Positions 1 through 64,000 of a stretch of DNA of 64,000 nucleotides are shown here, piece after piece. A program made the translations under genes and the position numbers. Under the pieces are notes generated by a model, which saw only the letters and a program-made list of their open reading frames with translations, was not told the DNA's origin and did no database searches. Origin of the DNA: Amoebophrya sp. A120 (taxonomy: Eukaryota; Protista; Dinoflagellata); NCBI GenBank assembly GCA_905178155.1, contig CAJINV010000013.1, forward strand, positions 1,388,392 through 1,452,391. The letters run 5' to 3'. Numbering within the stretch: the stretch's first letter is position 1; every line of letters begins with the position of its first letter.

Positions 1-3000
1 CGGGAAGCACCGCGATGCATTGGAGTGGTACTACAGCTTTTATGGTTTTATTTGCAGGTCTGTAGTACCTCACATTTTTTTCTCGTGCAGAAAAGAGTCG
101 GATTCATCGCTCCGGCGTCCAATTTGCATCGGAAGCAAGCCGTCCAGTCCGAAAAAAAACCTCCTCCAGGTCCCAACTTTTCTCCCCTACCACCGCGAAG
201 AAGCTTCTTTTCTGAAAGAGGGAGGTACCGCCCGCGAGCGGGAAAGGACGGCCGCACGGATTCGCGATTTCCGCAAGTCCCGCGGGTTGGACTCCCCCAG
301 TACCTCGGAGGACGACGGCGCGGCGTCCGTATCAAATGTAAAAATGTCTGGGTCTGGAAACTTGTAATGCTAAAAATGAATGCTAGACGCACTGCAATAC
401 GCAGCTACGCATGACAATTTTTTTGGCTACCAATGTCTTACGTATTCCGCATGGCAAACTGCGTTTTTGCATGACAGGCGAGGAGCACGCCGGTCAGCAA
501 ACGCGAGCGAGGAGCACGCCGGTAGCAAACAAAAGAACGGCGGAGCAGAAAACAACGCAGGAGAGACAGAGAGGATCGGGAGGCGACGCGAGTCGTCACC
601 AATCTGGAAGCCACCAGCGAAAAAACGAAAACCCGCCCACCTCTCGCAATTCTTCAACGTCGCGGACATGTTCGGACCACTAGGGACGGAACTTGGGGGC
701 AACATCTTCGGCGCAGCTCCACGAGGACAGGGAGAGACAGGAAGCAGCAGCTCCAGCAGCTCCTCACGACCGGCGCAGCCGAACACAGAAAACCCCCCCA
801 AGGCGAAGCAGCCCCCCCCTTAGCGGCAAACCCCCCTTACCCTCCCCCTTGGGCAGACATGCGGCAGTCGGCCAGCAGCACAAAAGGATAGCAGAAAAAG
901 CTACAGGGTCCCAGCGCGGCAGGGGCGCACAAACACACGAACACGGAGCCAGGAAAGCGAGGAGTAGCTCACACTAGAAGAAAAACAAGTCAACTTTTAC
1001 CAGAAAAGCAGCAGACTAGTCGTTTTCTTCTTTTTTTAAAAAAAATAGAAGGCTAAAAAAAAACTACTGCAGGAGTACAGGGAGCCAACAAGGCTCACTC
1101 GCCGGCAGAAGACGCGAAAGCTCACAGGAGAAGAGCAGTCGGGTGGGCTGTTCCGGCGGAGGGACAGAGAGAAAAAAAAGAAAGAGAAAAAATAGGAATG
1201 ACAAGATGGCGCGTAGACTGTACGTCCCCCCCTTTCCACAAACTTGGACCCCAAGTCCTCTTTGCACCGAACGCAACCAAAACGAAGCAGAACGAGAACG
1301 GAGGGAGGATTCGCGCCGGAGTTTTATTTTGCATGAAAACAAAAGAAAAACGGAAGAAGAAACCAAGCCCGCAAAACATATTCAAACCATGTGAGGCCAC
1401 CAGTGCGAAAACTTCTACGGAGTCTGTGCCTAACTTAGCCTGCGACCATGGTTGTGAATAGCCCCGAGGTTTTTCATATCCGGCAGCAGTCCGTCGAACA
1501 GTCCCCGTACCCCCAGAGTAGCCCCCCCAACTACTCGCCCGAGCCAATGATCCCACTCGTGCGTCGCACCAACATAGGATGGGCTCACTTTCTCGCTTCC
1601 AGGGAGTGCGAATTGGTAACTAACCGACATTGTGCCAAGAGGAGGGCCTCCCCGGGACCGCCTGGCGAAAGCCTGCCATGGGTTTCACTGTCCACGGGTG
1701 GTGTTGCGGGTAATCCTGACGAAAGCCAAAAACCGGCAGAAAATGGGGCCACGGAAGCGTTCTTGCTGGACATTGCCAACATTTGCCCATGCAGAGCCGT
1801 CCTCTTGCCGGACACAACCCACATCTGTCCGAAACAGCCTAGGGCCAAGACGACATCGTGAGGACGACCACAGGGGGTTCGTCTCAATGATGATGATGAT
1901 GACAGGCAAGAGGGCTTTTTCGTGCCTATGCAACACAGATTTTCGAGTCATGCCAGACAAGCATGACAAACTTGCATTCTTCCAGACCCAGACACTTTTG
2001 CACAGGATAGTCCGCGGCGGAGTCCGATTTGGCCGAGTTTGAGACCAATCTCGAAACGCGTATCACGCAGATCCGCGGGTGCATCGTGGCCGCGCGGAAT
2101 CTGTACAAGGACATCGTGGTGGGCGATGGAATCTCGATGGCGCCGCGCGTCGGCGACTTGAACCGCGAGGTCCCGGTGCCGCTGGGCATGACGCAGCAGC
2201 GCGCGGAGAAGCTCGCCCGTTCTGCGGAGTCGCGGTCGCGGCGGATGACGGGGTCGCTGTTTTCCAGCGGCCGCGCGGGGAAGACGGGCATGGACCCCTT
2301 CGAGTACATCACGAACCCCAACCCGTACGTGGTGATGCGCGGCATCGACTACGACACGACCGTGTTTGAACTTTGCCGCACGGAGCCGCTGCTGGAGACC
2401 AAAGCGCCGTGCTGGGACTTGGAGTTCAGCGTGACCATCCCGGAGCAACTGTCCAAACTCCGCGGGATCGAGTTCCACGTGTACGACTACAACGACTGGC
2501 TGACGAGTTCCCTCCCTCTCGGGTTGATCCCGTGGGACAAGGGGGACTACTCGCTCGGAAAATGGGTGGTGGATTTGCACTCGTTAAACCACGCACTGTC
2601 CCAGTCGGACGCGGAGCTGCGCGCCATGAAACACATGAACGAGCACAAGGGCCGGCTGATTTACCAGGCGGCGCTGGTCCGGCGGAAGATCCACTGCTTG
2701 AAGCACCGGCTGCACATCCAAACCGAGTACGAGTACCTCCGCCAGCGAATCACCGGTTTGTACGGCCTCCAGAACCTCTACGCCAACGTTTTCCCGAACA
2801 AACCTTTGCCAAAAACCATCACGGAATACGGGTTTGTCGAGCCCGCCACCCGGGAGGCGGTCGAGGACACGATTTTGGAGTGCCACGGGGAGAAGTCGAA
2901 GCGGAGAAGCTTCAAAAAGGGCGACGATGACGAGAACGTGAAGCCGCCGGTGATTGAACTGAACCCGGACATCGAACCGCCACCCGGCGCGCCCGTTCGG

Positions 3001-6000
3001 CATCCGGCGGTGATTCGGTTGCTGGAAAAAAGGGCGATCGAGGCGGAAAAATTGAGGCAGCAGAAGCTGGAGGAGTTAGCGCTTGCCGAAATCCGGATCG
3101 CGCAGATGGAAGCGGAAGAAAAGGAGCGGGCCCGGCAGCGGCAAATGCAGCTGGACGCCATTCAGGAGGAGGAGGAGACGACGCACACGAAAGAGGAGGT
3201 GAGCAGCCTGACGATGACGATGACGCAGCGGGAAGAGGAGGAGGAAGAGGACACCGCGACGTCGCTAACTTTGAAACGGGACCAGTCGAAAATGAACACA
3301 ACGCTGTCCACGTTGGTCAGCTATCAACTGCAAAAATGTCTGGGTCTGGAAGATTGCAACTTGTCATGCTGTTTTTGGACTCGAAAAAAGTTTGTATTGC
3401 ATGACCAGCAAGAGGGGTACAGTTTGTGCTACACGGATAGGGCATTTCTCATGCGAAGGTGCATCAGGAAGCCCTCTAAAAGTCTGCGATGCTAGGTCAT
3501 GCATTACAGGCATCATGGGTCATGAGAAATATGCATGACAAGTCTTGCATTCTTCCAGGCCCAGACATTTTTGCATTTGATATCAGCTCCGGCGGCAGTC
3601 TGGACGGAGTGAAAAATACCGCCGGCGGAGGTCCTGGTGCAAACGTTCCAGCTGCTGCCGCGCCGATCGCGGGGACTAATGGCGTGACCCCACCAGCACC
3701 AGCGGTTTTTATCAAGGAGGGGCAGCACGAAGCCGCCGCGGCTGCCGCGGCGAAGAAGAAGGCGCCGAAGATCCCGCTGGACGAGAAACAGCAGGCGATG
3801 CACGAGCTGAAGAAGTCCTTAACTTTGAACAGCTTGGTGGACCGGGTGAAGAAGGAGCGAAAAGAGACGAAAAAGCGCATCACCGGCGACGTCACCCTGC
3901 CGGCGTTCACGGTCGTTGTGTTCGGGGTGTTCAGCAACGGGGAGGAACGGGAACTGCACCGTTACCCGCTCGTGACGAGTTACAACGCTTTCGGCCTCTG
4001 CCCGGTCGACATGCTGGTGGGGAACAGTACGCTGCTGGGTCCGAACGGCGCCAGCTCGAACAAAATCAAGTACGCCTTGCGGTTGCCGACCACCCGCCCG
4101 CCACCCTCGGAGGTCGAGATGGATCTGGTCGCGACACTGGCGGAAATCCGCGCGAAAAGAAGTCCGGAGTCACCCGCGAACCGGCTGTTTGCAGATCAGC
4201 TGAATCGGTGTCGGCCGGTGGTCGGTGTGAAAGGCATTGCGCCGCTGCAGTCGGGTATGAAAAACGTGACGCAGGGCAGGTCGGTCGGTGCAAACTACGG
4301 GTTCACACCACTCGCCGAGTCCTTCGTGGTTCACGCGCCGGGGTTGAAGGGCACGGACGCGAAGGCGCACAAGGCGAAGATTGAAGCTGCCCGGCAGAAG
4401 ATGCTGGAGGCGAACATAAGCCAGTCGGATCACGTGAAGTCGACGACGAAGTTCAAAAAAGATCCGAGACGGGACGCTATGGCTCTTCTAGAAGATTTAC
4501 GCATTGCAAATATCGATCTCGTCTCTGGCGGTTCTGCCTGGAACAGTAGGTGCTGCTCTTTGTCCTGATGCAGCTTTTGCCTGCTCGCCTGAAAGTTCAA
4601 GTTGTGGAATGCATGGCGTGGTATCTTCACAGGTAGTCTTATGTTGAAAGCCTCTCAAGATCGGCCTATTCCGCATGCTGTCTGCGCGCGGCTACACAAG
4701 CACAGTTTTTGTTGTTCACGCGACCGCACAGATTTTTGTGTTACTGCCGGAGACAGAGCAGCAGCATCAAAAGTTTAATGCCTCTCTATTCATGCAACAG
4801 ACCACCGAGACGCATATTTGCAGTGCATACGATATGAAGAAGCAACGAGGCGGCGTGAAGTCGGAGGAGAAGGAGAAGAGACGGCGAAAAAGGGCAAAGC
4901 ACATCATCACCAGTCCCGGCGGAACTGCGGTTGCCGCCGGTGGAGATCATGGAGAGGGCAATACTAATTCGCCAGATAACAAATCCCCAGGCTCGCCCGG
5001 GACCACCGGCTCCAGCTTCTACACTTCCGACGAAGACAGCCAGAGCCGGGGCGGCCAATCCGGGGCCGGACACTCTACCGATGAGGACAAAGAAGAGCAG
5101 GAGGACGAGGAGGACTACCAAACGCAACTGTTTTCCGACAACATGTTGGAAAGGAAGGTGGAGCAAGCGCTCGGCAAAGTGGACAAGGAACTGCACCCTT
5201 TCGTCCTCCCCCGCTGGACCTACGACTTCAACCGCGACAACCCGTTCGCCCGGCAGAACTCGACGCTGTTGGCGGAGAGAACGTACGCGCGGAAGAACCA
5301 GATGGGCGAGGGCATGGTAGAGGATTTGCTGAACGAATCGCCGATTGACTTACTGTATCTACGGTTCCGCGTGTACGAGCCATCGAGTCAGCTGCGCACG
5401 TACGAGAAAAAAGTGAAGAAAGCCACGGACCGACGGCGCGCGCGGCGGCAGCGGGAGCTGGACGAGTGGCCGCTGTTCGTGGAAAAGATGCCGTACGACT
5501 TGCAGCAGCGCGCTGTAGACAACAAGTCCCAGTTCGTGCACGCCCGTGGTGGTTTCAAGCGGTTGGATGGGTTGTTCGCGAAGGAGGAGGTGAACGCGCT
5601 GGCCGCGGAGCGAAAGCGATTGCAGGAAGAAGCGGACGCCCGGGATTGGAAGGCGCAGTTGCGGATGAACCAGGCGAAGGCGAAGCAGAACGCAAGCAGC
5701 GGGAAATTTGCTGCGAAATGGATCAAAAAAACCGAGCAAGCAGGGGGGTTGGAAGCGCGGCGGAAAAAGAAGAAACTGGAGGAGGTACGAGTGGGGAGAA
5801 AAATTTGGGATTTGTTCCGATCAGTTGCACTTTGATAGCACACTTGCAGTACTTCGGCGTCCTTGTAGAGGAAGCTTATCGAGTGCCGAAGAAGTAGCAG
5901 TAGCTTGTGCTACATCATGTTTTGTTTGCATAGTACCAACAGAACCTGATAAAGTTAAAGAAGATAGCATGTGGGCTTTTCACTTCAGATAGTGAATGAA

Positions 6001-9000
6001 CTGCGTGACCGTGAGAAAAAATCGCAAATCGCAAAGTTTCTTTTCCATACCCCGAAGAAGAGGAGGAGGATGATGAGGACGAGGAGGTCGAGGTTGAAGA
6101 GGCAAAGCCGCCGACGCCCGACGATTCCGATATGGACGCCGCCATTGCCGCCGGCGATTTCCAAGCTGCCGGGAAGCAATCGAGGGAAGTGCGGAAGATG
6201 CTGTTGAAAGCGGAAAACGAGCGACGAAAAGCGGCGGGTCTGAAAGCGAAGAAGTCCCCCGAGCAGGAACGGCTGGAGGCGAAGCTGGCGAGGAGACAGG
6301 CGCGGGAGGAGAAGGAAGACGGGGAACGGAATCGGGAGAAGGAAATTTTAGAGCAATCCGCGAAATTGAACAAGCAGCTGACCACCGAGCGGGACAAGTT
6401 AGGGGACTTGTCCAGTCCAACGTTGACCATGGACGCGCAAATCGCCCTGGACGCCGCGGATTTCTCCTCCAGTGCTTCTTCAGGCGACAATCACGCGCGG
6501 ACGCAGGAGGACGGGCTGTTCACACCGGTGGAAGGCCAGCACTGCACCAGTTTCGTGAAGAAGAGAGGTGCATCTTCTACTGCGTTATCGAGTTCATCAT
6601 CGAGTTGTTCGTCGTCAGCCACTGCAGGAACAACAACCGGGAAGAAAGTTGCGAAAAGCGAGGAAAAAGCGCGGCGTGTTCCAAAACCTTCTTCAGTCGC
6701 GCCCTTCACAGCGTTTCTCAGGAAAGGTCGGTTTGGCGACATGTTTGAAGCATTGTCGAAGAAAACGGGACTCTTTGGTGCTGGTTCTGCTTCCAGTTCA
6801 AGCAGTAGTAGCAACAAGAAGCAGGAAGAAGAACTTCCTGAAGGCAGAAGTACAACCACATCTTCAAAGCCTCCCGCGAAGAAAGGCGCCCGATGTACAT
6901 CGAGTAGCAAAAGTGCCAGCAGTAGTAGCAGCAGCAGCGGAATACAAGTCCACTATTCCGCGGAGGCAAAGAGACGATTCCCTGGTTTGCGGCTCGATAT
7001 CAGACCGAAGAAAAAGAACCCGTCAGAGATGAAATCCCCCGAACAAGAAGAAGAAGAGCCGGAAAAAATAAACCCCCCTGCTAGTGCTAGAGACTACAAG
7101 CAGGAAACGACTAACGTGTCCAACTTTTTGCAAGAAGTCCTGGGCGATTTGATGTCGGAATGTTCCTCCCGCGCACCGTTAGAGCAGAACGAGGAAGAGG
7201 AGATCATTTTGCTGAGCTCGGAAGTGGACAAACCAGAGATTTGGTCCCGGAAAACGGAGAACTTCAAGCCGGCGCATGTTGTCGAGGATCCAAGAGACGG
7301 GTCGAGGATGATGGGCTCTTCTTCATCTAAAAATGGGGGAAGTAGCCGAGAAACTACGAGTTCTTCTTCCTCTTCTAGGCCGACCTTCACTCTGCCAGAC
7401 TCCTTCTCGCAAACGATGGACGCAAAAATTTACGGCGAAAGAGAAGGCGTTCAGGTGTCTGATCGTGACGAAGACTGTGAACAGGCTACAAGCGGCTCTG
7501 ATGAGGAAATGCCAGGGAGCATTGACGAAAAATCCTCGAGTAGTAGTGGTAGTAGTGGCACTTACAGCAATAGAAGAGGGTCCTCGTCTTCATCCCGTCA
7601 AGGACCGCGCCTCGTCCTGGATACCTTTACAAATCCCGCCACGGGCGAGAAAGTTCAACTCCCGCGAATAGACGAAGACGAGGGTGGTGCAGTCGACGCA
7701 GTAGAAATGCGAGACGAGGAGGACAACTACGCCGTCAACGAGCAGTTCTTCGAACAAAAAGATGTCGAAAACGACATTTCTGACGACGACGCGGCACTAT
7801 CGCTTTTCTCCCCTAGTAGAAGTAGAAGAATACAATCCGCTACATCAACTACCCGCCAAGATGAGGGTCTGCACCAGCTTCCCGACGCAGTAGATTCGAG
7901 CACTCCCGGAGGAGGACACAACCAGGACCACACCGAGCAACAGGGGGACGAAGAGGAGGAAGAGGAGTCCGAGCTCGGCGCTTTCAAGGACAGCAAAACG
8001 GCTGCGGAGCGGAAATTGAACGCTAAGTACCCGCAGCAGCCGAAGGACCCCCCGCCCTTTGTGAAGGATCCGGACCTGCCCATGGGGGGGCGGGAGGATA
8101 AGCGGTTGATCAACGCGGGCCGCACGGTGATGATGGACGAGTACGAGCGGGACGAGGATGTGTACCACGACCCGTTCCCTGCCGGTTCGATGGTTCGCGT
8201 CCCTCACGACCCCATGCACCAGCCGGACCGGCACTTGCCGGATGCCATGGTGAAGCAGAGGCAGCTGCTGATGCCGCAAATCGTGGAGGACGTGAAGGAG
8301 CGGGAACGGCGGGACTTGCTGGATTGGCAAAGGAAGCGGTACGCGTACCAAACGAAGACGGGGACAAAAGTAGATTTAATGATCGACCCGAATTTCCGCA
8401 CGACGGGGTTTGCCGCCGAAGATTGGAAGAAGAAGTCCGCGCGGATCTACGGGCCGCCGGAGGGAGATCACGATAAGGACGGGGACAAATGGTTTCGCGA
8501 CCAAATTGTGCAGGAGGACGAGGAGAAATCGCAGCAAATCAACTCCGTCTGGCAGGCGTATCACCCGGATGCGTCGTCCGACGAGGATGCAGAGGTGATG
8601 GACGAATTTCGGTTTGGTTCCGTCGGCCAGTTACTGGCCGAGGGGGTTTACTTTTTGAACTGCGCATCCTTGCACAAACCGGAGACCATCCAGGTCGACC
8701 TGTACCCCTCGCAGGCGATTCTTGACAAGCTGACCGAAGAAGCGACGGAAGCGCTGGGCGGGGTCGCGATCGACCACCCGGGGGGTGTGATGGGCTCGGA
8801 AGGTGGATCTTCGGGTAGCAGAAATCACAGCACGAACTCCCACGGGATCCCCCTCCCGAAGAAAAAGCGCATCCAGATGGCGAAATCGCGGTCGGTCGCT
8901 TTCGGCGGGCAGAAGCCGGTGTCGCGAATCACGCTGAAGGAACGGATCACAAAGGTTTTGAAATTCCCGATCGACTATGGGCGGGAGGGTCGGGAGCGCG

Positions 9001-37000: not shown

Positions 37001-40000
37001 TGCAACCATGGCAGCGGGACCAATTGGCAGCGGGATTCGATGCGGCGGAGGCGGGCGGTATCGATACGTACGGAGAAAACGGAGGTAACATTTGCGGGCC
37101 ATTAAATAGAATTTTCGTTGGAAAAAGATTCACCAATTTTTGATGTTCCAGATCGCCTCCTCTTCTAGTTTTTGCACTCCGAAGTACTGTGAGGTTGTCG
37201 ATGTTGAAAATGAAAAGATTTCATCACCGGATGAAAACAAATTATCACAGGGAGTCAACTACACCATGGAGAACCGCTTCAAAGCCAGGTCGCAGTATGC
37301 CAGCAGCTTCCAGAGAGTGAGCATGAGAAGAGTGCTTCCAATTGCGAAGAGCAGGAACTGAACCCGCTTTTCCAGCCGGTGCTGCGGTTTCCGAACCGCT
37401 ACAAGGACCCAATGCCGTCCACTTCGTTCGTCACGCGAGTGATGAATTTGAGGGCAAAAGTCCTCGCGGACCGCACGCAGCAGCAGGAGCTGCACATCAA
37501 ATTCGAAGAGCTCATCCATCAATATCGCCGGTGCCGGGGGTTCACGCCGGATTGCTTGAAATTTTTGCTGAAAAGAGCGGACTTTGTGAACGCGTTTGGC
37601 GAAGCGAGAACGTCAGCGGGCACTGCTGTAACAGCTGTTTCGATGTTGCCTGCCGGGAATCTTCGTGGCCGACGACCCAGCGTCGTGGAAATTTTTGAGA
37701 AGATAAAGGCTCTCGAAAATCGTGTAGACGAGTCTACTCCCGAAGAAGTAGAAGTTCTTGAAGTGCAGAGCTCCGTACTTACAAGCACCACCTCTACTTC
37801 GGGCGAAGAGGCCAATGCTCCGAAAGAAGAATTCTTGTCCATCGCTCCAGCCAATGTGGAAGCAGATGGCACAAAGATGATCAGGACGGGTAGTACTTCA
37901 CCTGAGGATTCTGAAGCTGAGATCTTAAAAACAGACACAACAACCAGCACGGAAAATAAGCACACTACCGCTGTTTCACCTCCGGAAGTGATTCACATCC
38001 ACACGACGCTCACGCTGGAAGAAAGCGAGAAGCTCCGCGAAAAGCGTAAAGCCCTAACCGCCAACGCGGAGAAGAAGCTGGCACAGCTTGCGGAGTTGCT
38101 CCCCGGCGCCCACGAGATTGATTTGCGGCGCGAAGTGTTTCTGAAACCGCTGCAGCAGGAGAACCTACCCGATGGGCTCGCGGACCACTGCTCGCACACT
38201 TTGCTGGGCGTCGCAAGCCTATACCAGAAACTGGCCCTGGATCCGCGGAACCGGGCGAAGCTCTACCAGCAAGAGGACCGCGTCGTCGAGAGTGGGGACT
38301 TAACAACAGCAACCATCTCTCCGGGCTCTGAAAGAATGCTGACGTTTCTGATGCAGGTTTTCTATGCCTCGCAAGATCTGAAATGCGTGGGGCAGCTGCA
38401 TCACAGATTCTGGCGAGGCTTTGTAAGATGCCAATCTTGATGCATGAGATACCCACACACTGCGTCACAAATGCTGAGAGAGTGTTTCTACTCATGCGTC
38501 CCAAATCTTTTGTGAACTAAAGCAGAGAGTCCTCTGAGTCGCAAGTTTGCATTCTTTTGGAAAATAAACCCAGGCAGTGTTGCAATTCATAGGACTACCA
38601 ATACATGAAAAGTGATAACAGTTCCGACTCATCGAGCGAAGAATCCAGCGCTGCTGAGGAGGAGCAAGGTCTGCGGAAAATTTTCAAGATGCGAAGGGAG
38701 GATATGAACTGCAAAAATGTCTGGGTCTGGAAAGTTGGAACTTGTGATGCTACCTGTGGACTCTACATGAAATCTGTATTGCATGAACAGCATAAGAGGT
38801 GCAATTTGTGCTACGCGGAGAGGGCATTTCTCATGCGGTATGAGCATCAGAGAGCCCTCGCAGATTCTCTGATGCTAGGGCATGCATCACAAACCTCATG
38901 GGTCATGGAAAATCTGCATGACAATCTTCTGTATTCTTCCAGACCCAGACATTTTTGCAGTGAATAGAGGAGCAGGAAAGACAAGAGAGCGAGCGAACAA
39001 TTACATCTTCGAATAGCATGATTCCCGCTCCTTTGGAATTTAGTCCTAGCACGGCCGCCATCACGACGCCCTTCTATCTGCTGGGAAAAGATAAAAGTAC
39101 AAGAACTTCAGGAGCAGGCGATCTGAAGAATAAGCATATTCCCGACTTGCTGAACACTACGAAGAACATTTTCGAACAGGCGGAAGAGCAGCTTCTGGAG
39201 GAACAAGAAGGGCAGGACACGAACAACAAAAGAAATAAACCCGTGAATAACCCTTTCGCGAGATTCTTCCGCTCCGGGCGGGATTTGAAGCGGAATGTGT
39301 TTCTCTTGGAGAAGCACCGGCAGTGGGTGGAGCAAATCGGCAGCATTGCCCAGGAGCGGCTCCATGAGAGTTTTTTTCGGGGAAATACAAGTACTAGCAA
39401 GAAGAAAGAAAATTCCGCCAATACTGCTCTCCTGAATCGAAAGAAAAAAACCGACCCCGGCTGTGGCGTTTCCCGTTTGGTTTTACTCCACGACAGGCTT
39501 CCAGCGCACCTTCGGGGCCTCTTTGACGACGACAATTCACCCTCCGCAGGAGACCGCAAGAGAGATCGGACAACGCCAGCTCTGGTCGTTGAGAACGTGA
39601 GGGAGATGAGAAAGCTGCAAGAGTACGAAGCGAGGCTGAACCGGAGCTCGTTTCTGCCCCTCGGCGCGTTTGCAGATCATGGCTTCAATATTGAGGGTGA
39701 CAAGAATCATGCCGCGATGGCGGGGGGGAATGCGAATGCGAATGCCAACGGCAACAAAAACCGGAAGAGCAAGGACGGGAAAATGATCTTAAATGGATTT
39801 AGTACGAACACCCTGTGCGACGTGCTCGCACCACCACCCTCGGCTCAGTTTTTCCGCCACGAAAACCTCCCGGACGAGGTTTTGCAAGGGTTGCTGGGGC
39901 GGGGAGGCTCTCTACGTTCGTCATCGAAGAAGAAGAAGAGCAGGACTAAAAATGCTGACTCAAGACACAAAGCGCGAGGACCCAACGGATCTTCTGCCCA

Positions 40001-43319: not shown

Positions 43320-43336
43320 TAGACCTGACTACGAAA

Positions 43337-50676: not shown

Positions 50677-50718
50677 TATGGCGCGCGCAAAGTAACATTT
50701 TACTTTGCGCGCGCCATA
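50677..50718. mobile_element. 42-bp perfect hairpin mini-element with TAT...ATA ends and 5-bp TSD
   Basis: Arms TATGGCGCGCGCAAAGTAA / TTACTTTGCGCGCGCCATA (19 bp perfect, 4-nt loop). TCATC on both sides, at 50672-50676 and 50719-50723. Confidence 0.8.
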
Positions 50719-51257: not shown

Positions 51258-51307
51258 TACCAAAATCACGTCCGCGGACCGGGTTTTACCAAAATCACGT
51301 CCGCGGA
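51258..51307. repeat. 21-bp direct repeat with 29-bp period
   Basis: TACCAAAATCACGTCCGCGGA at 51258-51278 and 51287-51307, just downstream of the ABCB stop codon. Confidence 0.8.
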
Positions 51308-51442
51308 TCGAAAAGCGATAGACGTTCATTCAAATTAGTAGTTCCGTGACTGCTTTGGAAACGTAAAAAGTGGGGGCTCATTTTCAACTATCATTTCTCC
51401 GTGCGATCCTGATCTTGTAAAAATTTCGTATAGAAGAATTAC

Positions 51443-54400: not shown

Positions 54401-54591
54401 ACGATGCGCCACAGACTGGGGGCCTTGTCCTGCTCATTTTGCTGGGCAGGTGAAACGGAAGGCTTGGAGGGTGTCATCTCTGCGACGGCCAAAGTACCAG
54501 CAGGCTCCTTCACGGACAGGCTTTTTTCTTGCGCAGTAACGATCTTATCGGGAGCGCCAGGAGATGGCTCGTCTGACATTGTGGCTGTCAT
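51443..54591 (-). CDS. ABCB-family half transporter (ABCB10/TAP-like)
   Basis: TM domain (AGERVVARLR, TGELMSRLTSD), Walker A GHSGGGKST, signature LSGGQKQRIAIARA, Walker B LLLDEATSALD and H-loop IVAHRLSTV. Exon 1 (54591-54289, LWRIVDLAKPEW...FGKLMDE) joins IMITRDD after removal of element 54019-54288. Confidence 0.93.
54019..54288. mobile_element. Introner-like TIR element, family A copy 4 (270 bp) in the ABCB gene
   Basis: TATCAAATGTAAAAGTGTCTGGGTCTGGAA ... CTGCCAGACCCAGAAATTTTTACATTTGATA. TSD TTCGT (54014-54018) / CTCGT (54289-54293); the mismatch is synonymous (GAA/GAG). Confidence 0.93.
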
Positions 54592-56074
54592 CTTGATGCA
54601 AGAGGTTACCTTAAGTATGTTTCTAGGAAAAATCGTACAAAGAAAATAGAAAAGCAAAATGTGTCTGAAAATCAATCGAAATCTGACTTCCTCTCCTAGG
54701 AGGCTACTGTTCTGTTGTGGTGCGGGTGCTCGATCGGAAAGAAAATTTCCACGGAAGATGCAGCTTGAAAATAAAGGCGTTTGATCTGAAAATCAAAATG
54801 TGGGGCGAACTTGAAGTGAAATAACTGGAGACACTGTGGGTTTGTTTTTGAAATTTCGAATCACGACTGGACCAAGGTTGCCAATTTGCGTTTGCCGACT
54901 TTTTTACGAATCACTTTTACTTTTCTGAATCACTTTTACGACTTCGATTCGACAAGGGACGGCTTTTGTGGACGATTGCGACTTGCAAATGCACGAGCGA
55001 AAGCAAACTTTGTACTAACTTGTGTGTGCAACAGCTTTGAATTTGCGAAAAAATCCTCGAAGGCGCTCGAAAATCTCCTGGCAATTCTGTCTCTCTTGCT
55101 TTTCGACTGAATAATATATGGCTGTAGTAGTACAGTATCCTGTGTTGGATTTCGATTTGGAAAAAACGGAACAGAAAAACATCAGAACTGTGATGTGCCG
55201 AACTACAAAAGTTTTTTCCGCAAAAACAAAAGGTTGTACATCTGGATGCGATGGAGAAAAGAAAAAGATCGCAAGCTGTGTGTAAAAAAACAGGTGACCG
55301 AAATCCTTCAAATCTCGTGCGTTTCTGCGCAATTATGTCTATCTCTCAACACAGATAGGGAAAAGTCAACGTAGTAATGAACACAACAGGCCTTCCTCTT
55401 CTCGCAGTCGCTGGTATCTCGTCGCAAAGCCTTGATCCATGATACTCGGGGATCTACGACTTCTTCCGTGTCAATACAAGATAGAATATGTTGGATGAAG
55501 ATTCAGATTCTGCAAACTCAAAGCCGCTGACAATTTGAACTACTGCAAGCAAGAGCAGGCGACCAACATTCTGTCGTGAACGTGATCGATGCGGTGCGGG
55601 CAACCAAAATGTCGATGACATGAGAGCGATATGCACCTACATGCCTTTGTTCAAATCGTCTGCAATGCGTATGCTGCAAATGCAAAAATTCAACATCATC
55701 TCCGTGCACTATTCGTCTCTTTTGTTCCCTCCTCTGCCTTCACGGCGCGTGGTCGGCACGTGGTGCTTTTTAGGAGATTGATGCTGCGAGCGTGGTGCGC
55801 TTCCAGTTTCAATTCTAATACAGTGCGGAAATTACAAAGAATGTTGCCTAGGGTATGCAAAAGAGACTGCAAGCAGAGTCGATAGAATCGTCCAGCACCA
55901 GCTATCGGGCTATCCCGCTGCTATCTTCTTTATTTTGCTTCGTACTTTTTACAAAATTGCATGGGCGATTATGCACATGACTTGGTGGTCGTACATACCT
56001 GAGAAACTTATCGTCAAATTCTGCACCATTTGGATAAAATGGGTAAAAATTTGCAAGGCCAAAATGCAAGCAGG

Positions 56075-56283
56075 TATCCAAGAAAAAAACTGTGTTAGTG
56101 TAAGTCTTTTGGGAAAACAGCATCACAAGTTCGTCTGCCTTGACAGGAAAAACTTGTCATGCACAGATAGTAAGGGAAAACACATAGGAATGGAGCCGAT
56201 CATGCATGTCGAGCATGACAAGTATAACTGTTTTGCATTTTCTGCATCACAGATTTACACTTACACAGTTTTTTTCTTGGATA
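56075..56283. mobile_element. 209-bp TIR element (family D) with TAT...ATA ends and 5-bp TSD
   Basis: TATCCAAGAAAAAAACTGTGTTAGTGTAAGTCT / AGATTTACACTTACACAGTTTTTTTCTTGGATA. TSD GCAGG at 56070-56074 and 56284-56288. Carries the same GCATSACA / TGTCATGC internal motifs as family A. Confidence 0.9.
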
Positions 56284-56587
56284 GCAGGTGTGCAGGGTTT
56301 ACTGCGACAACTGCTTCTGTGTTAAATCGATTCATCTGTCAAAGCTTAATTGATTTTACTTCTGCGTATTCATTCTTCGAAGCGAACGAAACAAGAAATA
56401 GCGAGCACTAGCTTGCTGTTTTTTTTTTCCACTTTAGTTGAGATGTTAAACATCATTCACATTCGGTATAAGGTAAGTTTTCTCAAAACAGGAGGGTCGT
56501 CGTGCTCCTGCTTCTTCAAAGGCTCTTCCCAACAACTAGACATCGTCCTCAATCTAGTGCCGTCGCTCGACTGTGCAAGACGTGGTT

Positions 56588-57467
56588 CTACAGCTTCGGA
56601 TTGTACGAACCTCGGTACCATCCGGAATCAAACCCACGGCTCTTCTCCTCGTACTTCATAGCCGGATCTTGAAACGCGGAAGGACCCCGGTCCATCCAGT
56701 CTGAGGTAGGATTTTTTTTGGCGACAATTGGCTTCGATTCCCCTTGGTAGTAATAGGGCGCTGGACCTCATTCTAAATTTTTTTGCGATCGTAATCAGGG
56801 AATTATCGAAACAGAAAACGACAAATCGTAGATTTTGTATACGTACTTACCTTCCGCGAAGCCACGCTCCACGTTTGTCGTCTCCATCTTTTTCAGTGCG
56901 GTCCCCGCTTTCGTTCCCTGCTGCATGGTATGCACTGCAAACATGTCTGGGTCTCGAGAGAGAATAAAGTTGAAGTTATGCTTATGACGCAAACGCAATT
57001 CAGCTAATAATGAGCGGACTGTAACTACTGCACCGCCAAGCATGCCAGGTTTTGGCATGATCTTCGCTCTGCGTATCGTATTGACGAGACGAAGCTTCGT
57101 TTGCGGATGACAGACAAGAGGAATGCTACGTGGCAATGCAATACAGAACTCAGAGTCATCGTCATCGTCATTCCAGACGAGCATGACAAATCCCGCGATC
57201 TTCCAGAATCACACATATTTGCGATGCATACATCATCGGATCAGCGGCGGAAGAACGGTACCACCCGGACTGGAAGCCACGCTCCTCTGGCGTGGTCATG
57301 TTACGGTTCAATTTTGCGGACGTCAACCCGTCCGCGCCTTGCCCTAATTTTTTCTTCGATGTCGCCGTTCCCAGTGCCTGCGGATACCCATCGCCGGCAC
57401 CTGCCTTTTTCGACTTGGTCATCGAAGCGTCCGGCTTTCGCTCCTCTGCACAACAAACGGCGCCCAT
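56588..57467 (-). CDS. Small (140 aa) predicted N-acylated protein with three RGFxxxW repeats
   Basis: Exons 57467-57231, 56923-56851 and 56700-56588. The first intron is element 56929-57230 plus one TSD; the second is GTAAGT...CTCAG (56701-56850). N-terminus MGAVCC. Repeats ERGFQSGWYRSS, ERGFAEDWMDRG and SRGFDSGWYRGS fall in three different exons in one frame. Confidence 0.8.
56929..57230. mobile_element. Degenerate introner-like TIR element, family A copy 6 (302 bp)
   Basis: TATGCACTGCAAACATGTCTGGGTCTCGA ... TTCCAGAATCACACATATTTGCGATGCATA. Decayed TSD CATGG / CATCA. Removal gives in-frame ADPMM-QQGTKAG on the - strand. Confidence 0.8.
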
Positions 57468-58830
57468 CTTTCGTTTTTTCGTGAACAGGTAAAAGGGTTT
57501 TTCCGCGGATTCGCTGGTGAAGGGGAAAAAAATGGTAGGCTTAAAGCGGCTTATTTTTCTCTTATGTAGTTGGCGCAGATATAAATACAGGGATAAACGA
57601 TCAACTTAATTACGGCACTAGGAAGACTTCTGTGTGGGACAAGTCAGTGTCTTTTAGTGGGAAAATTTGAATACTTACTGTTGTAGAAACCGACGCTCTG
57701 ATAGAATTCTGCCACCTCCTACTCCTCCTATTCAGAAGGTCAACATCCTTGGAGGTCCTTCATAACACCTGTGGTTTTTTCAGTTTTGTGAGAAACTAGA
57801 ATGAAATCAATTGCTCTGGTGACTCGCACGTAGGATGAAGAAATTGCTCTGCACATATCAGTGATCATCCGTGGTCATGCGATCACTCAGCGATCACTGG
57901 ATGTTTCGGCGGCAGTCCGCTACTACTGTCTGCTCGTCACCGAACCTGTACTTGTTGGCTTCTCACGCCAGGTGTGATGTTTTATAAGTTTTACATATAC
58001 ATACTCGATGGAGGTTATTTTCCTGTTTTTCACGAACCGAGGGTTTGATGAAGATGAAAGCCTCAACATAGACCGAGTGAAGCCACTTCCATTTCGTTAA
58101 CAGGACACTTTGATCTGCGTGGTTCCAGTGGGTCTTGTATATATAGTTGAAACACTTGTTAAATTTCTTCTTCTTGGAGGCTTCGCTCGATAGACCACAA
58201 TGCCCACGACTGCATGGTCGCTTTTCCTGGCGCTACCCTTTGGCAGCGCCAGCAACGGCGAGGGCCCGCTGTTTATTTTCAAAGTCGTACTACGCTGACC
58301 GTAGTTGCTTTAATATTTCCCTATCGAGAATCAATGGGGGCGAAGACGTACTGGGGGATTAGTGTGCTGTTCCGAAAAAAGCGTGTCATGGTGGGTCGGT
58401 TACTGCTCATGCTGAAATGATGCTGCAATGAATGTGATAATAATATTTTCATGCGGGTGGTACTATAAATATGGAAGCTTCTACTCTAGGGTCCTGAGTA
58501 CGAGGAAAAATCGTGTGACGACTTTTTTCGAGATCCATCAGTTGGAAAAACCTGACGAAATAACGCAATTGAAATGACATACCACTGGAAACCAACGCGA
58601 CGGCGCTATTCATTTGGATGCTCTGCCAATAAAACAAGAACGTCCCTATAATTGCAAACGAAATTATGTCCAGCTGTCATGTAAAAAAGCAGGCTAGTGT
58701 AATGCTCTGTGGAAAAAACGTTCAATGACACAATGATCACATGACAATGTACAGTTTGGTAAAACTACCCCCGTCGATATTATCCCAAAAGCTTCGTTCT
58801 TACATTCAAGTACTGTTACATGCCATCCAT

Positions 58831-61055
58831 CTAGATTCCCAGAGGTTTTGCCTCAGCCACCTCGGCCTCGATGTCCTCACCGGCCTCCAAGGCCTGCTCC
58901 CACTTGATGACCTGTGCGACGCCCTCAATGAACAGGTTGCAGAGCTGCACCTCGGACATCCCCAGCCTATCGGCGTTGCTGATATCCCAGGTACCCCCGG
59001 TGGATGCGGAGTCTACGCCGGCGGTGCCGCGGGCCTGGAGCTTCATCTTCTTCAGGATGTCCTTGAAGTCCGGGCGGGCGGAGAAGAGCGGGAGCTTCAC
59101 CATGGTGCCCGCGCGGAGTCCGGTGCCGAGGTTGGACGGGCAGGTGAGGATGTATCCCAGATGGTCACTGTGCATGAAGTCGTACCCTTCGGACTTCAGG
59201 CACTCCTGCACCGCCTTGGTCGCGTTGGCAAACCGCGTGAAGATGGCGTGGATGTTGTCACCTGGTAGTAGTAGTTGTTATACACAGTCATCGAAAAGTA
59301 GATATCATACGATAATACTTTCGTCTCGTTTTCTTTCTCGAGCTGGAATCGATTCAATATCAAAAAGAAAAGAGCTGCATACCTTTCTCCATGGACACAA
59401 TGCGCAGCTGATCCTCCTCGTTGACCCAGACGAAGAAGTTCTCCGCGTCGTTGTGGAAGATGCCCCGGGCGTCCGGCCAGTGGCGGCCGCAGCCGGAGGA
59501 GAGCAGCAGGGTGGAATCCGGCTCCTGGAACAGGTTGCCCGCGTTACGCAGGTGCTCTTCCTTCTCCGCGGACATACCAAAGATCCCCTGGTCGTCCATC
59601 GACTTGGACCCGTTCAGCGGGAAGTACTGACCCTTCAGCTCTCCCTCCATCTTCATCAGGCCCTTGACGCAGACGCGCTCGGTCTCGCGACGCTCCTCAA
59701 AGGTGCACGCGGGTGGGAGGGGGAGACCGCGGACGGAACGACCGGTGCGGCACCGGGTGGTCAGGCCTGAGGGTTCGTTTGCGCGCTTTGATTTATGGGT
59801 AGAAAGTTTCAGTTAGTTAAGTTTGTCGAGCAGTGTATGCAAACGAACCAAAGATGAATAACTGCTGGCAAAGGTGTAACGAAATGATGATGAGTGTGAT
59901 CATACATAGTCATACACATCAACAATCTAAAAGTAGTTCTCTCATACAGTAGTTTCCCGTCGGGTCGATCTTCGTCGTGGAGAGTTCGTCGATGTTCATG
60001 TTTGTCGTGTGCACTGCGTCGGCCGGGTAGTCGCCGTTCCTCTTGCCAATGACGATGTCGAACAGGTCCTTGAACGTGGTGAAGCAGTCCTCATCTCCTG
60101 CCACCAGCCCGCAGGTGAGAATGTGCGGGTGTCCCGGGTTGTCGATGCCGGTCTTGATGCACTTGGCGAGCGACACCCCGCCCGGGGTGGTCACGTTCTT
60201 GTACTTTTCGTAGATTTCCGGGTGGTCGCGCAGCGCCAGCGCGCACAGGTTGCCGTGGTTGGACAGGTCGGGCAGCTGGTCCGGGCACTTGTCCCCCGGG
60301 AAGGTCGCGCCCTTCTCCTCGCAGTAGTACTCCTTGTCGCCGCACCCCAGCTTGATCCAGTCCGGGAGAGTCTGCACGTTCAGGGCCAGGCCGTACGGCG
60401 GATAATTCGGGTCCTTGACCAATCCCTCGTCACTCAAGTGCTTCGAGAAGTGCTGGAGCAGCTTCTTGTCCAGGCCCGCCTTGAACTGCTCCTTCGTAAT
60501 CTTTCCCGACTCGTCCACGTTCATCTTACTGAAGATCTGCTCCGTCTCGTCCGCCGTCATGCCCATGTCCCCGAAGATCTTCTTCATCTCCTCCATGTCC
60601 AAGTCTCCCGAATGGTCCTGGTCGATCTGCGCAAACACCTTCTCGGCGTTCACCAAAGGGCGGAACCCCTCGATGCGGTTCTTGTTGTTCAGCTTCGCCT
60701 CGATCGCGTGTTGCAGCTCCGGAAACATGTTGCCCTTCCACTTCGCTTCCGACACCGAGGCGCCGCCCTCCGGGTCGAGTTTGTCCATGAACTCCTGCGC
60801 CTTCTCCTTGTTCAGCCCGAGCGCGGCCAGCGCGCGACGGAGCTCCTTCTTGTCAATCTCGTTGCTGTTGTTCGTGTCCAGCTGCTTGAAGACCGACGCG
60901 AGGAACACCGCGGGGTCCCGACCGGACGCGGTCATCTTCGCAGCTGCCGCGGGGGCTGCAGCTGCTTTTGGGGCGGGGGCGGACGCGGCGGCGGCCGGGA
61001 CGGCGCCGGGACCGCTGGCGGTCGCGCCTTGGGCTGTACTGGCTCCGCAACCCAT
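58831..61055 (-). CDS. Phosphagen kinase (creatine-kinase-like) fused to N-terminal EF-hands, with myristoylation/palmitoylation motif
   Basis: MGCGAS start; EF-hand loops DTNNSNEIDKKE, DQDHSGDLDMEE and NVDESGKITKEQ; kinase motifs TGIDNPGHP, WVNEEDQLRI, CPSNLGTGLRA and DISNADRLG. Exons 61055-59948, 59766-59383 and 59261-58831 with GT-AG introns in phase. Confidence 0.92.
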
Positions 61056-62130
61056 TTGTTTATTTTCTTATGCTTTCAACTTTTGGACGACTGTCGAGTT
61101 GTTTATAGAATTGGGGAAAAATAAATCCCGGGTGTGAAGAACGAAGATTTTTTTGATTATTTTACGGGTGCTCCGGCTGGGGTTACCTGGACTGAAATGG
61201 TTTCTCTACTTTCTTGCATAATGTAATGCGGTGGAGTGGACGTCGTGAGAAAGTAAAGTCACAAGCGGTACGATGACGATACGAAAAACTGGTGCAACGT
61301 ACGGCGGAGAAAGACAGAACGGACCGATGATTCTATTCTTTTCAGATTAGACGTAGAGTCACTTTTCCGTGCAGCTATGCCTCCTGCGTGAAAGCAAGTA
61401 AAAAGCAACTGGCTGTGTAGGATTTCCACAAAAAACCGAGTCGGTCTTTAGCATGAAAAAAAGGTCAAAATTGTGTTTCAAACCGAATTCTGCGAGGTAG
61501 CACCAAAAAAAGTGAAACCGACTTGCGACTTCTCGGTACAAAGGTAGGAGTTGGGAAAAAAGACCGTGACCGGACGCCGAGTGCCTCACGCTTTCTGTCC
61601 GACAAATGGCAAAAATAAAAGACCGAGGAATATTACGGACGAGTTTCTGACGGACAACAAGTGCGGTTCTGTTGTTTGTTTAGAGTCTCACGGTTACTGG
61701 ACCGACAAGTCAGGGGAAAACTACAGGAGAAAGATATGCAGTAGCAGTGTTTCCTCGTCTGCTTCCTTTCCCTTAACGGGAGGTAAGTTGTAGTAACTAA
61801 TGGCGCACTTTATTAAGAAGCTGTGGTGTCAATTCCTTTTGCAGGAGGTGGCAAGCAGAGTGAATGAATGTAAGTACTTATCAAGTTTTGGCTTCGCGTT
61901 TTGCGTGTCATATCATCAAGATCAACAATCAGACCAACCATTTCATAGATATCATACATGCGTGCAGCTCCTGGCTTACTTTCGGTGTGTATTCAAGCTT
62001 CGTGTCAATGCATAATACACGTGAAAGAAAAACGGCGTCGCTCACTAGGTACAGTGGGTTAGCTCTTTCGAGCGAAAGCGAAACAAAAGTCGTAGTGTAC
62101 GGAAACAAAGAATACTAAGCGCCACTAAAA

Positions 62131-64000
62131 TCAGAAGAAAGAGCGGAGAAGTCCTCCTGGTGATCTCCTTTTGATTTGATAAGATGCATTACTTGCGGGT
62201 TCCACCTCAATATCACTGTCGACAGCAGAAGGAGTAATCTTGTTTTCAAGGTCCTCGCTCTGCACCATTCCGTCTTTCCCACGCGCCATCTCTATTGCCC
62301 CTGCCTCCGCATCGTGAACTCTTTCGTCCTTGTGGTTCCACAAGCAAAAGAAGACAAGAAGCAAAACGCCAATCCCGATAATGCTACCCATTATCGCCCC
62401 GACGACCAGCGAAGCAGGGGACTCCGTGGTCTCCTTTGCCTCCTGCACTCCACCTGCTGCGCTCGCCACGACCGTGGTGGTTGATGTACTTGTTGGCACG
62501 GTCAAACTGAAGACTGTCGTCGTGAAGTTGTGTGAGGCCAATGACGTCCCCGCAACGGCCGTGGTGATACTGGACGTCACGGCTGCGGCGATAGAGGCGG
62601 TGGATAAGGTCGCTGAAGATATTATCCCGCTAGTTGTACCAGAGGTCGACGGCGCAGCTGCTGCTGCAAGAACCGGGCGTGATTTTGCCAGCGTCGGTAG
62701 AGGAAATTTCAAACTGCGCGCTCACCGGGACGACGGCTGCCAGATTTCTACGATTGTTCCGCTGCCGAAGGGGTCTCGTAGCCAAGAGCCCCGACCAGGA
62801 CATTGTCATCGACGTACTTACCCCGTTTTCGCCGGCGGTTGATTTGCAATTAGCCAGACTCGAAAACGGCTTCAATGTGCCCATGACGGGTCTATGGATT
62901 GTAAAAATGTCTGGGTATGGAAGAGTTCATGTTTGTCATGCTTGTCTGGCATGACTCTTAAATCTGTCACGCACGTTACCCAAGAGCTCCGTTTTTCTGT
63001 GATGCAGAAGCGCAGTTTGTCATGCAGAATAGGCAACACCTAGGAACTCAGATAGTTGTCATGCTGGGCCAGCATCTGTAGCCTCATCATGCGACGCCAC
63101 CCAGCATCACAAGTTTCCAGACCCAGACATTTTTACAGTTGATAGGGTCCGCAGAAGGATTCGTGGAGGGCAGTGGAAATGGCGGTCTTCACCATCGTCT
63201 TCTCCCCGGGCGTCATACTCGGGGGAAGCTCAATCGACAGGGCAACTTCCGTCGTGTGCTTCGTCACTGTTTGTGGTTCTCGGTCTGATTCTTGTTGATC
63301 TGCGGTAGTGTCTTTACCGGTTGTAGTAGTGGTGGAGGTGGCAGTGGCTGTCGCTGTGCTGGTGTCATCACCCGTGGAATAATCCGATGAAGTCCTTTCC
63401 GATATTACCGGCTCCGCCGGAGTTGTGGTGGTCGGGGTCGTAGTGACGGAGAAAGAAGAACTACCTGGCGAAGGCGACGGTGTCAGCGTCAGATTTGCAC
63501 TTCTCGGACTCAGGCTTGTTGCATTGGGGGCCCGTGTTGGCTCTGTTGGCGAAGGCATGGGAGTTCTTGCTGCACCAGCAAGCACTACACTTTTCTTCAC
63601 CACCGTCGCACGCAAACCTTTCTCAGTAGTCGCGTAGAACTGCAGGAAAAAGCCCTCGGGGAGAAAGTTCGTCGCGAAGCCGAGCAGAAAGGTCGCCCAG
63701 TCTACGCTCGTGGGCCGCGTGTCTTTCCAGGTGTTCAGTTCCGGATGGGGCGAACACCAGCCGGGCGAGTACGCCGGCAGCCCGCCGAGCGTTTCCCCGC
63801 CGTAGTAACAGGTCTTGGTCTGCCATAAATCCAGCAGTTGGGTGTTGATGCCGTCGCGGTAGGTCGTCGTGTTGTGGTTGGGGGTGCCGGGGTCGTTATT
63901 GGTTTTGTCGAACTCGTGCACTATGCGGTCGGCCGCCTCCGCGGCCGTCAGGTACCCGCCCATGATGGGCAGGCTGAACCACAAGTGTGGGTTTTTGTTG
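62131..64000 (-). CDS. Single-pass membrane protein with T/S/P-rich mucin-like stalks (5'-partial)
   Basis: ORF 63133-63984 joins ORF 62630-62884 in frame after removal of element 62893-63144 (ESFCGP-VMGTLK). A 1-nt slip near 62675-62677 leads into ORF 62131-62712, which has TM LVVGAIMGSIIGIGVLLLVFFCLW. Confidence 0.65.
62893..63144. mobile_element. Introner-like TIR element, family A copy 5 (252 bp)
   Basis: TATGGATTGTAAAAATGTCTGGGTATGGAA ... TTCCAGACCCAGACATTTTTACAGTTGATA. TSD GGGTC at 62888-62892 and 63145-63149. Confidence 0.95.

What the first reader, a model, noticed from the sequence alone, without database searches (positions are those of the whole stretch)
330..63144. Family A elements occur in both orientations relative to host transcription
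Seen: the asymmetric internal arm TGCAAYACAGA...GAGTC...AGCATGACAA..TCTTCCAG lies at the transcript 3' end in copies 330-2009 and 62893-63144. It lies, reverse-complemented, at the transcript 5' end in copies 3322-3582, 38703-38966, 54019-54288 and 56929-57230. Inference: removal cannot rely on a strand-specific donor, branch point and polypyrimidine tract supplied by the element. The symmetric ~30-bp TIR stem, which brings the two TSD copies together, is the likely signal. That points to structure-defined splicing.
Basis: partly seen in the sequence, partly recalled or inferred. Interest (0 to 1): 0.75.

Follow-up and report, generated by a model that had tools for sequence, protein, structure and literature searches.

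The report
Amoebophrya introners spliced in both orientations
These are already-described transposon-like introns of the marine parasite Amoebophrya A120 that sit in genes facing either way and are cleanly missing from RNA-like assemblies without the usual GT-AG signals, likely because their inverted ends fold into a hairpin that marks where to cut.

Summary
All six copies are real TAT…ATA inverted-repeat elements with 5-bp target duplications. Relative to the transcript, four face one way and two the other. The window encodes a protein 100% identical to an Amoebophrya sp. A120 record, and these are the introners of Farhat et al. 2021. Each time the element plus 5 nt is gone, three copies per orientation; a likely DNA run carries the first-gene copies. 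In 57 related copies the orientation split is 25:32 (p=0.43). The inference is only partly right. The ~30-nt ends and a subterminal motif read alike either way, so orientation cannot separate structure from sequence signals, and either-way introners with ordinary splice sites are published for Polarella. Better evidence is that none of 7 joints can be read as GT/GC-AG and that copies with decayed duplications are still removed precisely. A fixed cut 1 nt before and 4 nt after the stem fits all joints (inferred). Known system, useful refinement.

The parts
330..2009 (+). Introner copy, arm at transcript 3' end. 252-bp element (330-479 plus 1908-2009) with a nested insertion. TSD 325-329 / 2010-2014, 5/5.
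   Evidence: RNA-like contig joins 324 to 2010, 1685 nt missing, in X1; 67% identical to 62893 when collapsed
480..1898 (+). 1419-bp insertion inside copy 330, with a 9-bp duplication (471-479 / 1899-1907) and an (ATG)n tail; likely a truncated non-LTR retroelement
   Evidence: other copies join 470 to 1899 with 8-9 shared letters in X1, X2, X5; no credible Pfam match in 4 ORFs tested
3322..3582 (+). Introner copy, arm at transcript 5' end. TSD 3317-3321 / 3583-3587, 5/5.
   Evidence: joint 3316 to 3583 in X1 and X2; element ends present in X5
4498..4829 (+).
   Evidence: joint 4493 to 4831 in X1 and X2; kept in one X5 contig 3556-13313; opposite to the 3322 subfamily in 94 of 94 comparisons, same as the 330 subfamily in only 26 of 37
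5785..6053 (+). 269-nt non-canonical intron (GT..CC or TA..CG); possibly a decayed introner TAC…ATA at 5786-6049 with the duplication lost (1/5)
   Evidence: joint 5784 to 6054 in X1 and X2, kept in X5; element identity inferred
38703..38966 (+). Introner copy, arm at transcript 5' end. TSD 38698-38702 / 38967-38971, 5/5. Removal not tested on RNA.
   Evidence: 74-78% identical to 3322 and 54019; in-silico removal of element plus 5 nt extends the frame to 1066 codons
54019..54288 (-). Introner copy in an ABC transporter gene, arm at transcript 5' end; TSD 4/5
   Evidence: joint 54014 to 54290 in X1; the A120 protein aligns without a gap to the A25 relative across the site
56075..56283 (-). Introner of a second TIR family in the 3' untranslated region of the 56929 gene; TSD 5/5
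   Evidence: joint 56068 to 56283 in X1 and X4, 214 nt missing
56701..56850 (-). Canonical GT-AG intron in the same transcript; fixes the direction of the 56929 gene
   Evidence: joint 56700 to 56851, ends CT..AC on +
56929..57230 (-). Introner copy, arm at transcript 5' end; clearest opposite partner of 330 and 62893; TSD 3/5
   Evidence: joint 56923 to 57231 in X1 and X4; opposite to the 330 subfamily in 37 of 37 comparisons
62893..63144 (-). Introner copy, arm at transcript 3' end. TSD 62888-62892 / 63145-63149, 5/5.
   Evidence: joint 62887 to 63145 in X1 and X4

Best explanation
These are MITE-like introner elements of Amoebophrya A120 that lie in genes in either orientation and are missing, with exactly five flanking bases, from RNA-like contigs, likely because the inverted ends pair into a stem that sets the cut sites at a fixed distance, likely for the parasite's U1-less spliceosome. 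Shown: the anatomy (TIR, 5-bp duplication), both orientations without bias, precise removal, restored reading frames, and no GT/GC-AG at any joint. Inferred: insertion by a cut-and-paste transposase encoded elsewhere. Inferred: recognition of the symmetric ends, through the stem plus the invariant TAT, in place of U1 and of an AG acceptor. Inferred: one transcript-polar register, 1 nt before the stem and 4 nt after it, so that the intron starts N-TAT like the GTA(A/T/C) donors and loses one duplication's worth of bases. Least certain: which enzyme does it.
For: Removal: 7 of 7 TIR elements with a listed joint lose element plus 5 nt, including one in a UTR and one carrying a 1.4-kb internal insertion, so the interior is dispensable. 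X5 keeps 4494-4830 and 5785-6053 in one contig and holds the 330 and 3322 element-flank junctions at single-copy depth, 44-47. Orientation: 25 vs 32 of 57 host-called copies, p=0.43; opposite-facing pairs are up to 96% identical; 57 of 60 would shift the frame or carry stops in all frames if retained; flanking frames are in phase after removing element plus 5 nt in 37 of 41 clear cases, with 20 more unclear. No junction code: 0 of 7 joints can be read as GT/GC-AG; 4 of 60 related copies could be on the sense strand vs 3 of 60 on the antisense; no clear AG or G enrichment in the duplication (7 and 17 of 60); CTRAY is near the 3' end in only 1 and 5 of 127. Register: decayed duplications allow 1-5 (54019), 0-3 (56929), 1-4 (4498) and 0-1 (5785 intron) upstream bases, and only 1/4 fits all. 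Stem predicted in 6 of 6 short copies on both strands. Farhat 2021: spliceosome nearly complete, U1 not found, 15% of canonical A120 introns have the same repeats.
Against: No direct sign of selection for RNA pairing: G.U 37 vs A.C 45 (p=0.44) and 5 vs 12 in the window. The arms do not covary at positions 4-7 (0.68 vs 0.67 null) or 11-30. Only positions 8-10 do (p=0.015, one of four tests, possibly shared ancestry). The outer stem is often mismatched (position 7 pairs in 38%). The unique 1/4 register rests on reading 5786-6049 as a decayed element, whose arms pair best 4 nt out of register, and on assuming one register for all copies; family A alone allows 1/4, 2/3 or 3/2. No branch point or AG acceptor is seen, which sits badly with a spliceosome. 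The RNA evidence is contigs of one study (two samples), labelled RNA by guess; it gives no strand or efficiency.
Confidence: 0.55

Rival explanations
1. Hairpin-guided but spliceosome-independent removal: an endonuclease cuts at a fixed stagger around the stem base and a ligase joins the exons, as proposed for euglenid nonconventional introns.
For: Any dinucleotide is tolerated at both ends; no branch consensus. Euglena needs paired motifs with fixed 3-nt and 5-nt spacers, and its excised introns are reported as circles.
Against: The 1/4 register gives real GT..AG when the duplication is NNAGG (2 of 60 copies), the same geometry as spliceosomal Polarella class 12. N-TAT resembles the donor of the one RNA-verified canonical intron (GTAAGT). 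No such enzyme was looked for or found.
Confidence: 0.25
2. Sequence-defined removal: proteins or a divergent snRNA read the conserved TIR and subterminal motifs at each end, and pairing is incidental to the transposon's DNA symmetry.
For: TIR positions 1-3, 8-9 and 16-28 are 94-99% conserved on both arms (the core was partly fixed by the search pattern). The same ~50 nt appear in both orientations. No wobble bias.
Against: A second TIR family (56075), unrelated beyond TAT-N7-AAA, and diverged copies (4498, 56929) are removed the same way. Farhat 2021 reports 1954 A120 families with differing repeats. A shared stem explains this more simply.
Confidence: 0.13
3. The elements are cut out of the DNA in the transcribing stage (programmed excision) and not from RNA.
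For: TIR plus direct repeats, orientation-blind, sequence restored. The X5 joint table was cut (141 rows not shown), and the stage of each sample is unknown.
Against: X5 carries the first-gene elements at single-copy depth. The contigs that lack them also lack a GT-AG intron. Flush cuts at the TIR ends are excluded for 4498.
Confidence: 0.04
4. Reverse-transcriptase template switching across a hairpin between direct repeats creates false introns.
For: Hairpin plus direct repeat is the known substrate (template switching at direct repeats, passages).
Against: Joints are exact where the repeat has decayed to 3/5 or 1/5. Four joints rebuild a 3529-codon frame. The ABC protein is gap-free against A25. 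57 of 60 retained copies would be disruptive.
Confidence: 0.02

Closest known systems
Amoebophrya A120 introner elements (Farhat et al. 2021, PMC7789003; read: abstract, sections 10, 11, 12, 16, passages, supplement legends; figures not seen)
   Same: Same organism; inverted repeat starting TAT + 7 nt + AAA, short direct repeats across the boundary, non-GT-AG ends, about 250 nt, hairpin and an alternative splicing route already proposed.
   Different: Nothing in kind. Here the TIR is about 30 bp rather than 8-20. Orientation relative to the host and a fixed cut register were not found in the text.
Polarella glacialis and Aureococcus introners (bioRxiv 10.1101/2020.10.14.339549, passages; PMC9860276, passages; Aureococcus only as cited there)
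   Same: TIR/TSD elements, several classes making introns in either orientation. Polarella class 12 has a 5-nt TSD and takes its donor from the last TSD base plus the first element base, the same 1/4 geometry.
   Different: They need GT/GC/GA and AG supplied by the TSD or element, so target sequence is constrained and orientation is often biased. Here any 5-mer serves and no bias is seen (25:32).
Euglenid nonconventional introns (Nomura et al. 2025, PMC12501133, abstract and sections 8, 12; review PMC11282704, passages)
   Same: Non-GT-AG ends, terminal pairing, TSD-like repeats, fixed spacers between paired motif and cut, MITE origin proposed.
   Different: Motif CAG/CTG with 3-nt and 5-6-nt spacers and a purine after the 3' cut; tested genetically; circular product. 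Here TAT/ATA, with a 1-nt/4-nt spacer only inferred.
Fritillaria borealis MITE-derived non-canonical introns (review PMC11282704, passages only)
   Same: Transposon-derived introns with non-canonical ends.
   Different: Mostly AG-AC/AG-AT ends and reported to be excised by the spliceosome; here there is no preferred dinucleotide.

Membership tests
Amoebophrya A120 introner element | Lies in the A120 genome | tested here: met
   Window exon is 100% identical over 856 aa to a record named Amoebophrya sp. A120; A25 relative 51%
Amoebophrya A120 introner element | Terminal inverted repeat starting TAT, 7 variable nt, then AAA | tested here: met
   (positions 1-3 TAT and 11-13 AAA in 98-100% of 256 arms)
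Amoebophrya A120 introner element | 3-5 nt direct repeat overlapping the boundaries | tested here: met
   5/5 in 4 of 6 named copies and in 120 of 141 related copies
Amoebophrya A120 introner element | Removed from transcripts with non-canonical ends | tested here: met
   5 of 5 named copies laid; 0 of 7 joints GT/GC-AG; runs labelled RNA by guess
Amoebophrya A120 introner element | Repeated, dispersed family | tested here: met
MITE / non-autonomous TIR DNA transposon | Short, with TIR and fixed-length TSD | tested here: met
   mostly 240-325 bp; 5-bp TSD of any sequence
MITE / non-autonomous TIR DNA transposon | Cognate autonomous transposase with the same TIR | not testable with these tools
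Canonical U2 spliceosomal intron | GT/GC donor and AG acceptor | tested here: not met
   0 of 7 joints in any allowed register
Canonical U2 spliceosomal intron | Branch point consensus near the 3' end | tested here: not met
   CTRAY at -70..-31 in 1 and 5 of 127 copies; only that stretch was scanned
Canonical U2 spliceosomal intron | Lariat intermediate, spliceosome dependence | not testable with these tools
   needs raw reads of this strain or experiments
Euglenid nonconventional intron | N3-CDG … CHG-N5-6 | purine code | tested here: not met
   ends are N-TAT … ATA-N; the base after the joint is not restricted to a purine
Euglenid nonconventional intron | Terminal pairing with fixed spacers | tested here: inconclusive
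   stem predicted; one register fits four informative joints; no wobble bias

The most novel reading that the evidence does not exclude
Amoebophrya has a general hairpin-ruler splicing system, convergent with Euglena's. It removes any stem-closed insert, whatever its orientation, junction sequence or interior (up to 1.7 kb here), by cutting 1 nt before and 4 nt after the stem. This exactly cancels a 5-bp target duplication and makes TIR transposons near-harmless in exons.
Probability: 0.35. Interest if true: 0.78.

Novelty: already known. Interest (0 to 1): 0.4.

Why it matters
How Amoebophrya removes its non-canonical introns (over 60% of all introns, U1 not found) is an open question stated in Farhat et al. 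2021. The elements and the hairpin idea are published. This work adds three testable constraints not found in five literature searches or in that paper's text: no orientation bias, no junction-sequence requirement even after the duplication decays, and a candidate transcript-polar 1/4 cut register. If the register holds genome-wide, it fixes the annotation of tens of thousands of ambiguous junctions and gives a precise geometry for finding the machinery.

Tried and rejected
No whole genome is held, so the genome-wide tally was replaced by 150 loci from one public assembly whose organism is not given; splicing of those copies is not shown by RNA. No holder was on record as RNA. The raw RNA run X9 covered only repeat pieces (50 reads) and was uninformative on strand, efficiency or lariats. 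The viral collection had 0 matches. Earlier scan notes had nothing for this genome. A generic TAT…ATA scan gave 15 hits against 6-9 in 3 shuffles, so only hits with long TIRs or RNA joints were used. Orientation from window-only pairwise alignment was ambiguous between subfamilies and was replaced by graph linkage. The G.U/A.C asymmetry and arm covariation tests gave no clear support for RNA pairing. Pfam found no transposase or reverse transcriptase in 11 small ORFs of the nested insertion, the 13318 element and the 29971/42406 repeat. Rows dropped: 10 of 141 copies with TSD 3/5 or less; 71 of 131 without a confident host strand; 3 long copies of the 60 called were left out of the orientation tally. 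The joint tables were cut, so low-level empty joints in DNA are not excluded. Figures S19-S25 of Farhat 2021 could not be seen and may show boundary positions that bear on the register.
Full report
Identity. An exon of the ABC transporter at 51443-54013 (minus strand) is 100% identical over 856 aa to a 957-aa record named Amoebophrya sp. A120; the A25 relative is 51% identical. Farhat et al. 2021 (PMC7789003; I read the abstract, sections 10, 11, 12 and 16, passages and supplement legends, not the figures) describe A120 introners whose inverted repeats start with TAT, seven variable bases and at least three A, with 3-5 nt direct repeats and non-canonical ends. They propose hairpins and an alternative splicing route, U1 not having been found.

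Anatomy. The six copies sit at the stated coordinates with about 30-bp TIRs (22-28 of 30 complementary) and 5-bp duplications, exact in four, 4/5 in 54019 and 3/5 in 56929. Copy 330-2009 is a 252-bp element interrupted by a 1419-bp insertion with a 9-bp duplication and an (ATG)n tail; other copies in three runs join 470 to 1899. A seventh, diverged copy lies at 4498-4829.

Orientation. From the window alone only 56929 against 330 and 62893 is clearly opposite (z 13.1 and 8.2 vs 1.6 and 2.2). The subfamily 3322/38703/54019 carries arm-like sequence at both ends and is ambiguous against 330/62893. Only 2 strong edges bridge the two subfamilies, but 2959 of 3478 cross pairs agree, 926 to 5 among clear ones. 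A codon model called the host strand for 60 of 131 copies; in leave-one-gene-out tests it was right in 112 of 112 fragments at the margin used and 137 of 150 overall. Of the 57 in the graph, 25 face one way and 32 the other (p=0.43). Within tight subfamilies, window copies excluded, the splits are 8:9, 7:5 and 4:6, with smaller ones at 3:0, 2:1, 1:2 and 1:0. Opposite-facing pairs reach 96% identity, and 62893 has 93% identical partners facing the other way.

Removal. In run X1 one 12,306-nt contig with no mismatches joins 324-2010, 3316-3583, 4493-4831 and 5784-6054; X2 lists the last three. X5, which covers all 30 bins, keeps 4494-4830 and 5785-6053 in one contig and holds the element-flank junctions of 330 and 3322 at depth 44-47. 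The second lay shows joints 54014-54290 (X1), and 56068-56283, 56700-56851, 56923-57231 and 62887-63145 (X1 and X4). These runs are labelled RNA by guess; they also lack a GT-AG intron and have uncovered bins, which fits cDNA. They are two samples of one study and are contigs, so they give no strand or efficiency. Every TIR element with a listed joint loses itself plus 5 nt (7 of 7): 3322, 54019 and 56929 in one orientation, 330, 62893 and 4498 in the other, and 56075 of a second family. The joints rebuild frames of 3529, 1016, 186 and 370 codons, and the annotated ABC protein aligns without a gap to two relatives across the 54019 site. In the related loci, frames are in phase after removing element plus 5 nt in 37 of 41 clear cases (20 unclear; the strand call used the same join, so this is slightly favoured), and 57 of 60 would be disruptive if retained.

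The interior and its orientation are irrelevant, as the 1.4-kb nested insertion also shows. But the symmetric ends present the same sequence either way: identical TIR consensus, 60% vs 59% pyrimidine in the last 35 nt, and GCAT[GC]ACAA near the 3' end in 95 and 96 of 127 copies. A sequence reader would be as orientation-blind as a structure reader. Polarella and Aureococcus introners create introns in either orientation with ordinary splice sites (bioRxiv 10.1101/2020.10.14.339549, passages). The telling facts are others: none of 7 joints can be read as GT/GC-AG in any allowed register; only 4 of 60 related copies could be on the sense strand vs 3 of 60 on the antisense; AG and G are not clearly enriched in the duplication (7 and 17 of 60), and CTRAY is nearly absent; two TIR families and decayed copies behave alike.

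Register. Where the duplication has decayed, the joint limits the cut. In transcript direction the bases removed before TAT can be 1-5 (54019), 0-3 (56929) or 1-4 (4498), leaving 1/4, 2/3 or 3/2 if one register serves all. The 5785-6053 intron, if read as a decayed TAC…ATA element, allows only 0/5 or 1/4, leaving 1/4. That reading is uncertain, since its arms pair best 4 nt out of register. In 1/4 the intron starts N-TAT, like the verified donor GTAAGT, and becomes GT..AG when the target is NNAGG (2 of 60), the geometry of Polarella class 12. Matching duplications are not needed for removal.

Tests against my reading. The stem is predicted on both strands in 6 of 6 short copies, which any TIR would give. 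G.U pairs do not exceed A.C on the transcribed strand (5 vs 12; 37 vs 45, p=0.44). The arms do not covary at positions 4-7 or 11-30, only at 8-10 (p=0.015 within tight subfamilies). So pairing as the signal is inferred, not shown.

Mechanism and rivals. Most likely (0.55) the paired ends with their TAT set fixed cut sites for a U1-less spliceosome. Rivals are a spliceosome-independent nuclease and ligase as proposed for Euglena, where paired motifs and fixed 3-nt and 5-nt spacers were shown genetically (PMC12501133, abstract and sections 8, 12) (0.25); a pure sequence reader (0.13); stage-specific DNA excision (0.04); and template switching (0.02).

Novelty. The system is known. Five searches, the Farhat text ('strand' 0 hits; the 'orientation' passages shown concern genes) and passages of PMC12130899, PMC9860276, PMC11282704 and PMC11453091 gave no report of orientation or a fixed register for A120 introners; most subscription papers are outside the library. 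Verdict: real, already known in kind, with a modest but testable refinement. Interest 0.4.

Noticed in passing
window 480-1898: 1419-bp insertion with a 9-bp duplication and an (ATG)n tail nested inside introner 330; the whole 1685 nt is still removed from the transcript.
   Followed up: partly
window 29976-30885 and 42412-43321 (approximate): Two ~95% identical copies of a ~0.9-kb element with (ATA)n tails and long target duplications (about 13 and 17 bp), likely truncated non-LTR retroelements; the first sits just inside a GT-starting intron.
   Followed up: partly
window 13318-15046: 1729-bp TAT…ATA element with 52-nt arms and a 4/5 duplication, inserted in a ~36-bp tandem repeat of the coding sequence. 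Contigs of all three assembled runs break at 13313 and 15052, so removal was not shown. No Pfam match in 5 ORFs.
   Followed up: partly
window 56075-56283: Second TIR family removed from a 3' UTR, where no reading frame is at stake. On the opposite strand its joint happens to read GT..AG. Relatives at 78-81% identity are in several loci.
   Followed up: partly
window 38441-38592 (approximate): Likely further intron with a family-A-like TIR at its right end only; possibly a decayed copy.
   Followed up: no
window 58832-61055 (-): EF-hand domains fused to a phosphagen (ATP:guanido) kinase, with GT-AG introns visible in the sequence.
   Followed up: partly
window 56589-57467 (-): 140-aa protein starting MGAVCC (myristoylation/palmitoylation-like, motif recalled) with two GFxSGWYR repeats; one short gene holds a canonical intron and two introners.
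   Followed up: partly
window 1-42100 (+) and 46000-64000 (-): Genes run in two long co-oriented blocks converging near 43-46 kb, where GC falls to 32-43%, as described for Amoebophrya.
   Followed up: no
window 2011-13322 (+) and upstream: A gene of at least 3529 codons; the one exon scanned (2011-3315) had no Pfam match.
   Followed up: partly
L068 668-2183; L044 33-1745: Neighbouring copies on the same called coding strand in opposite orientations within 1.5-1.7 kb.
   Followed up: partly
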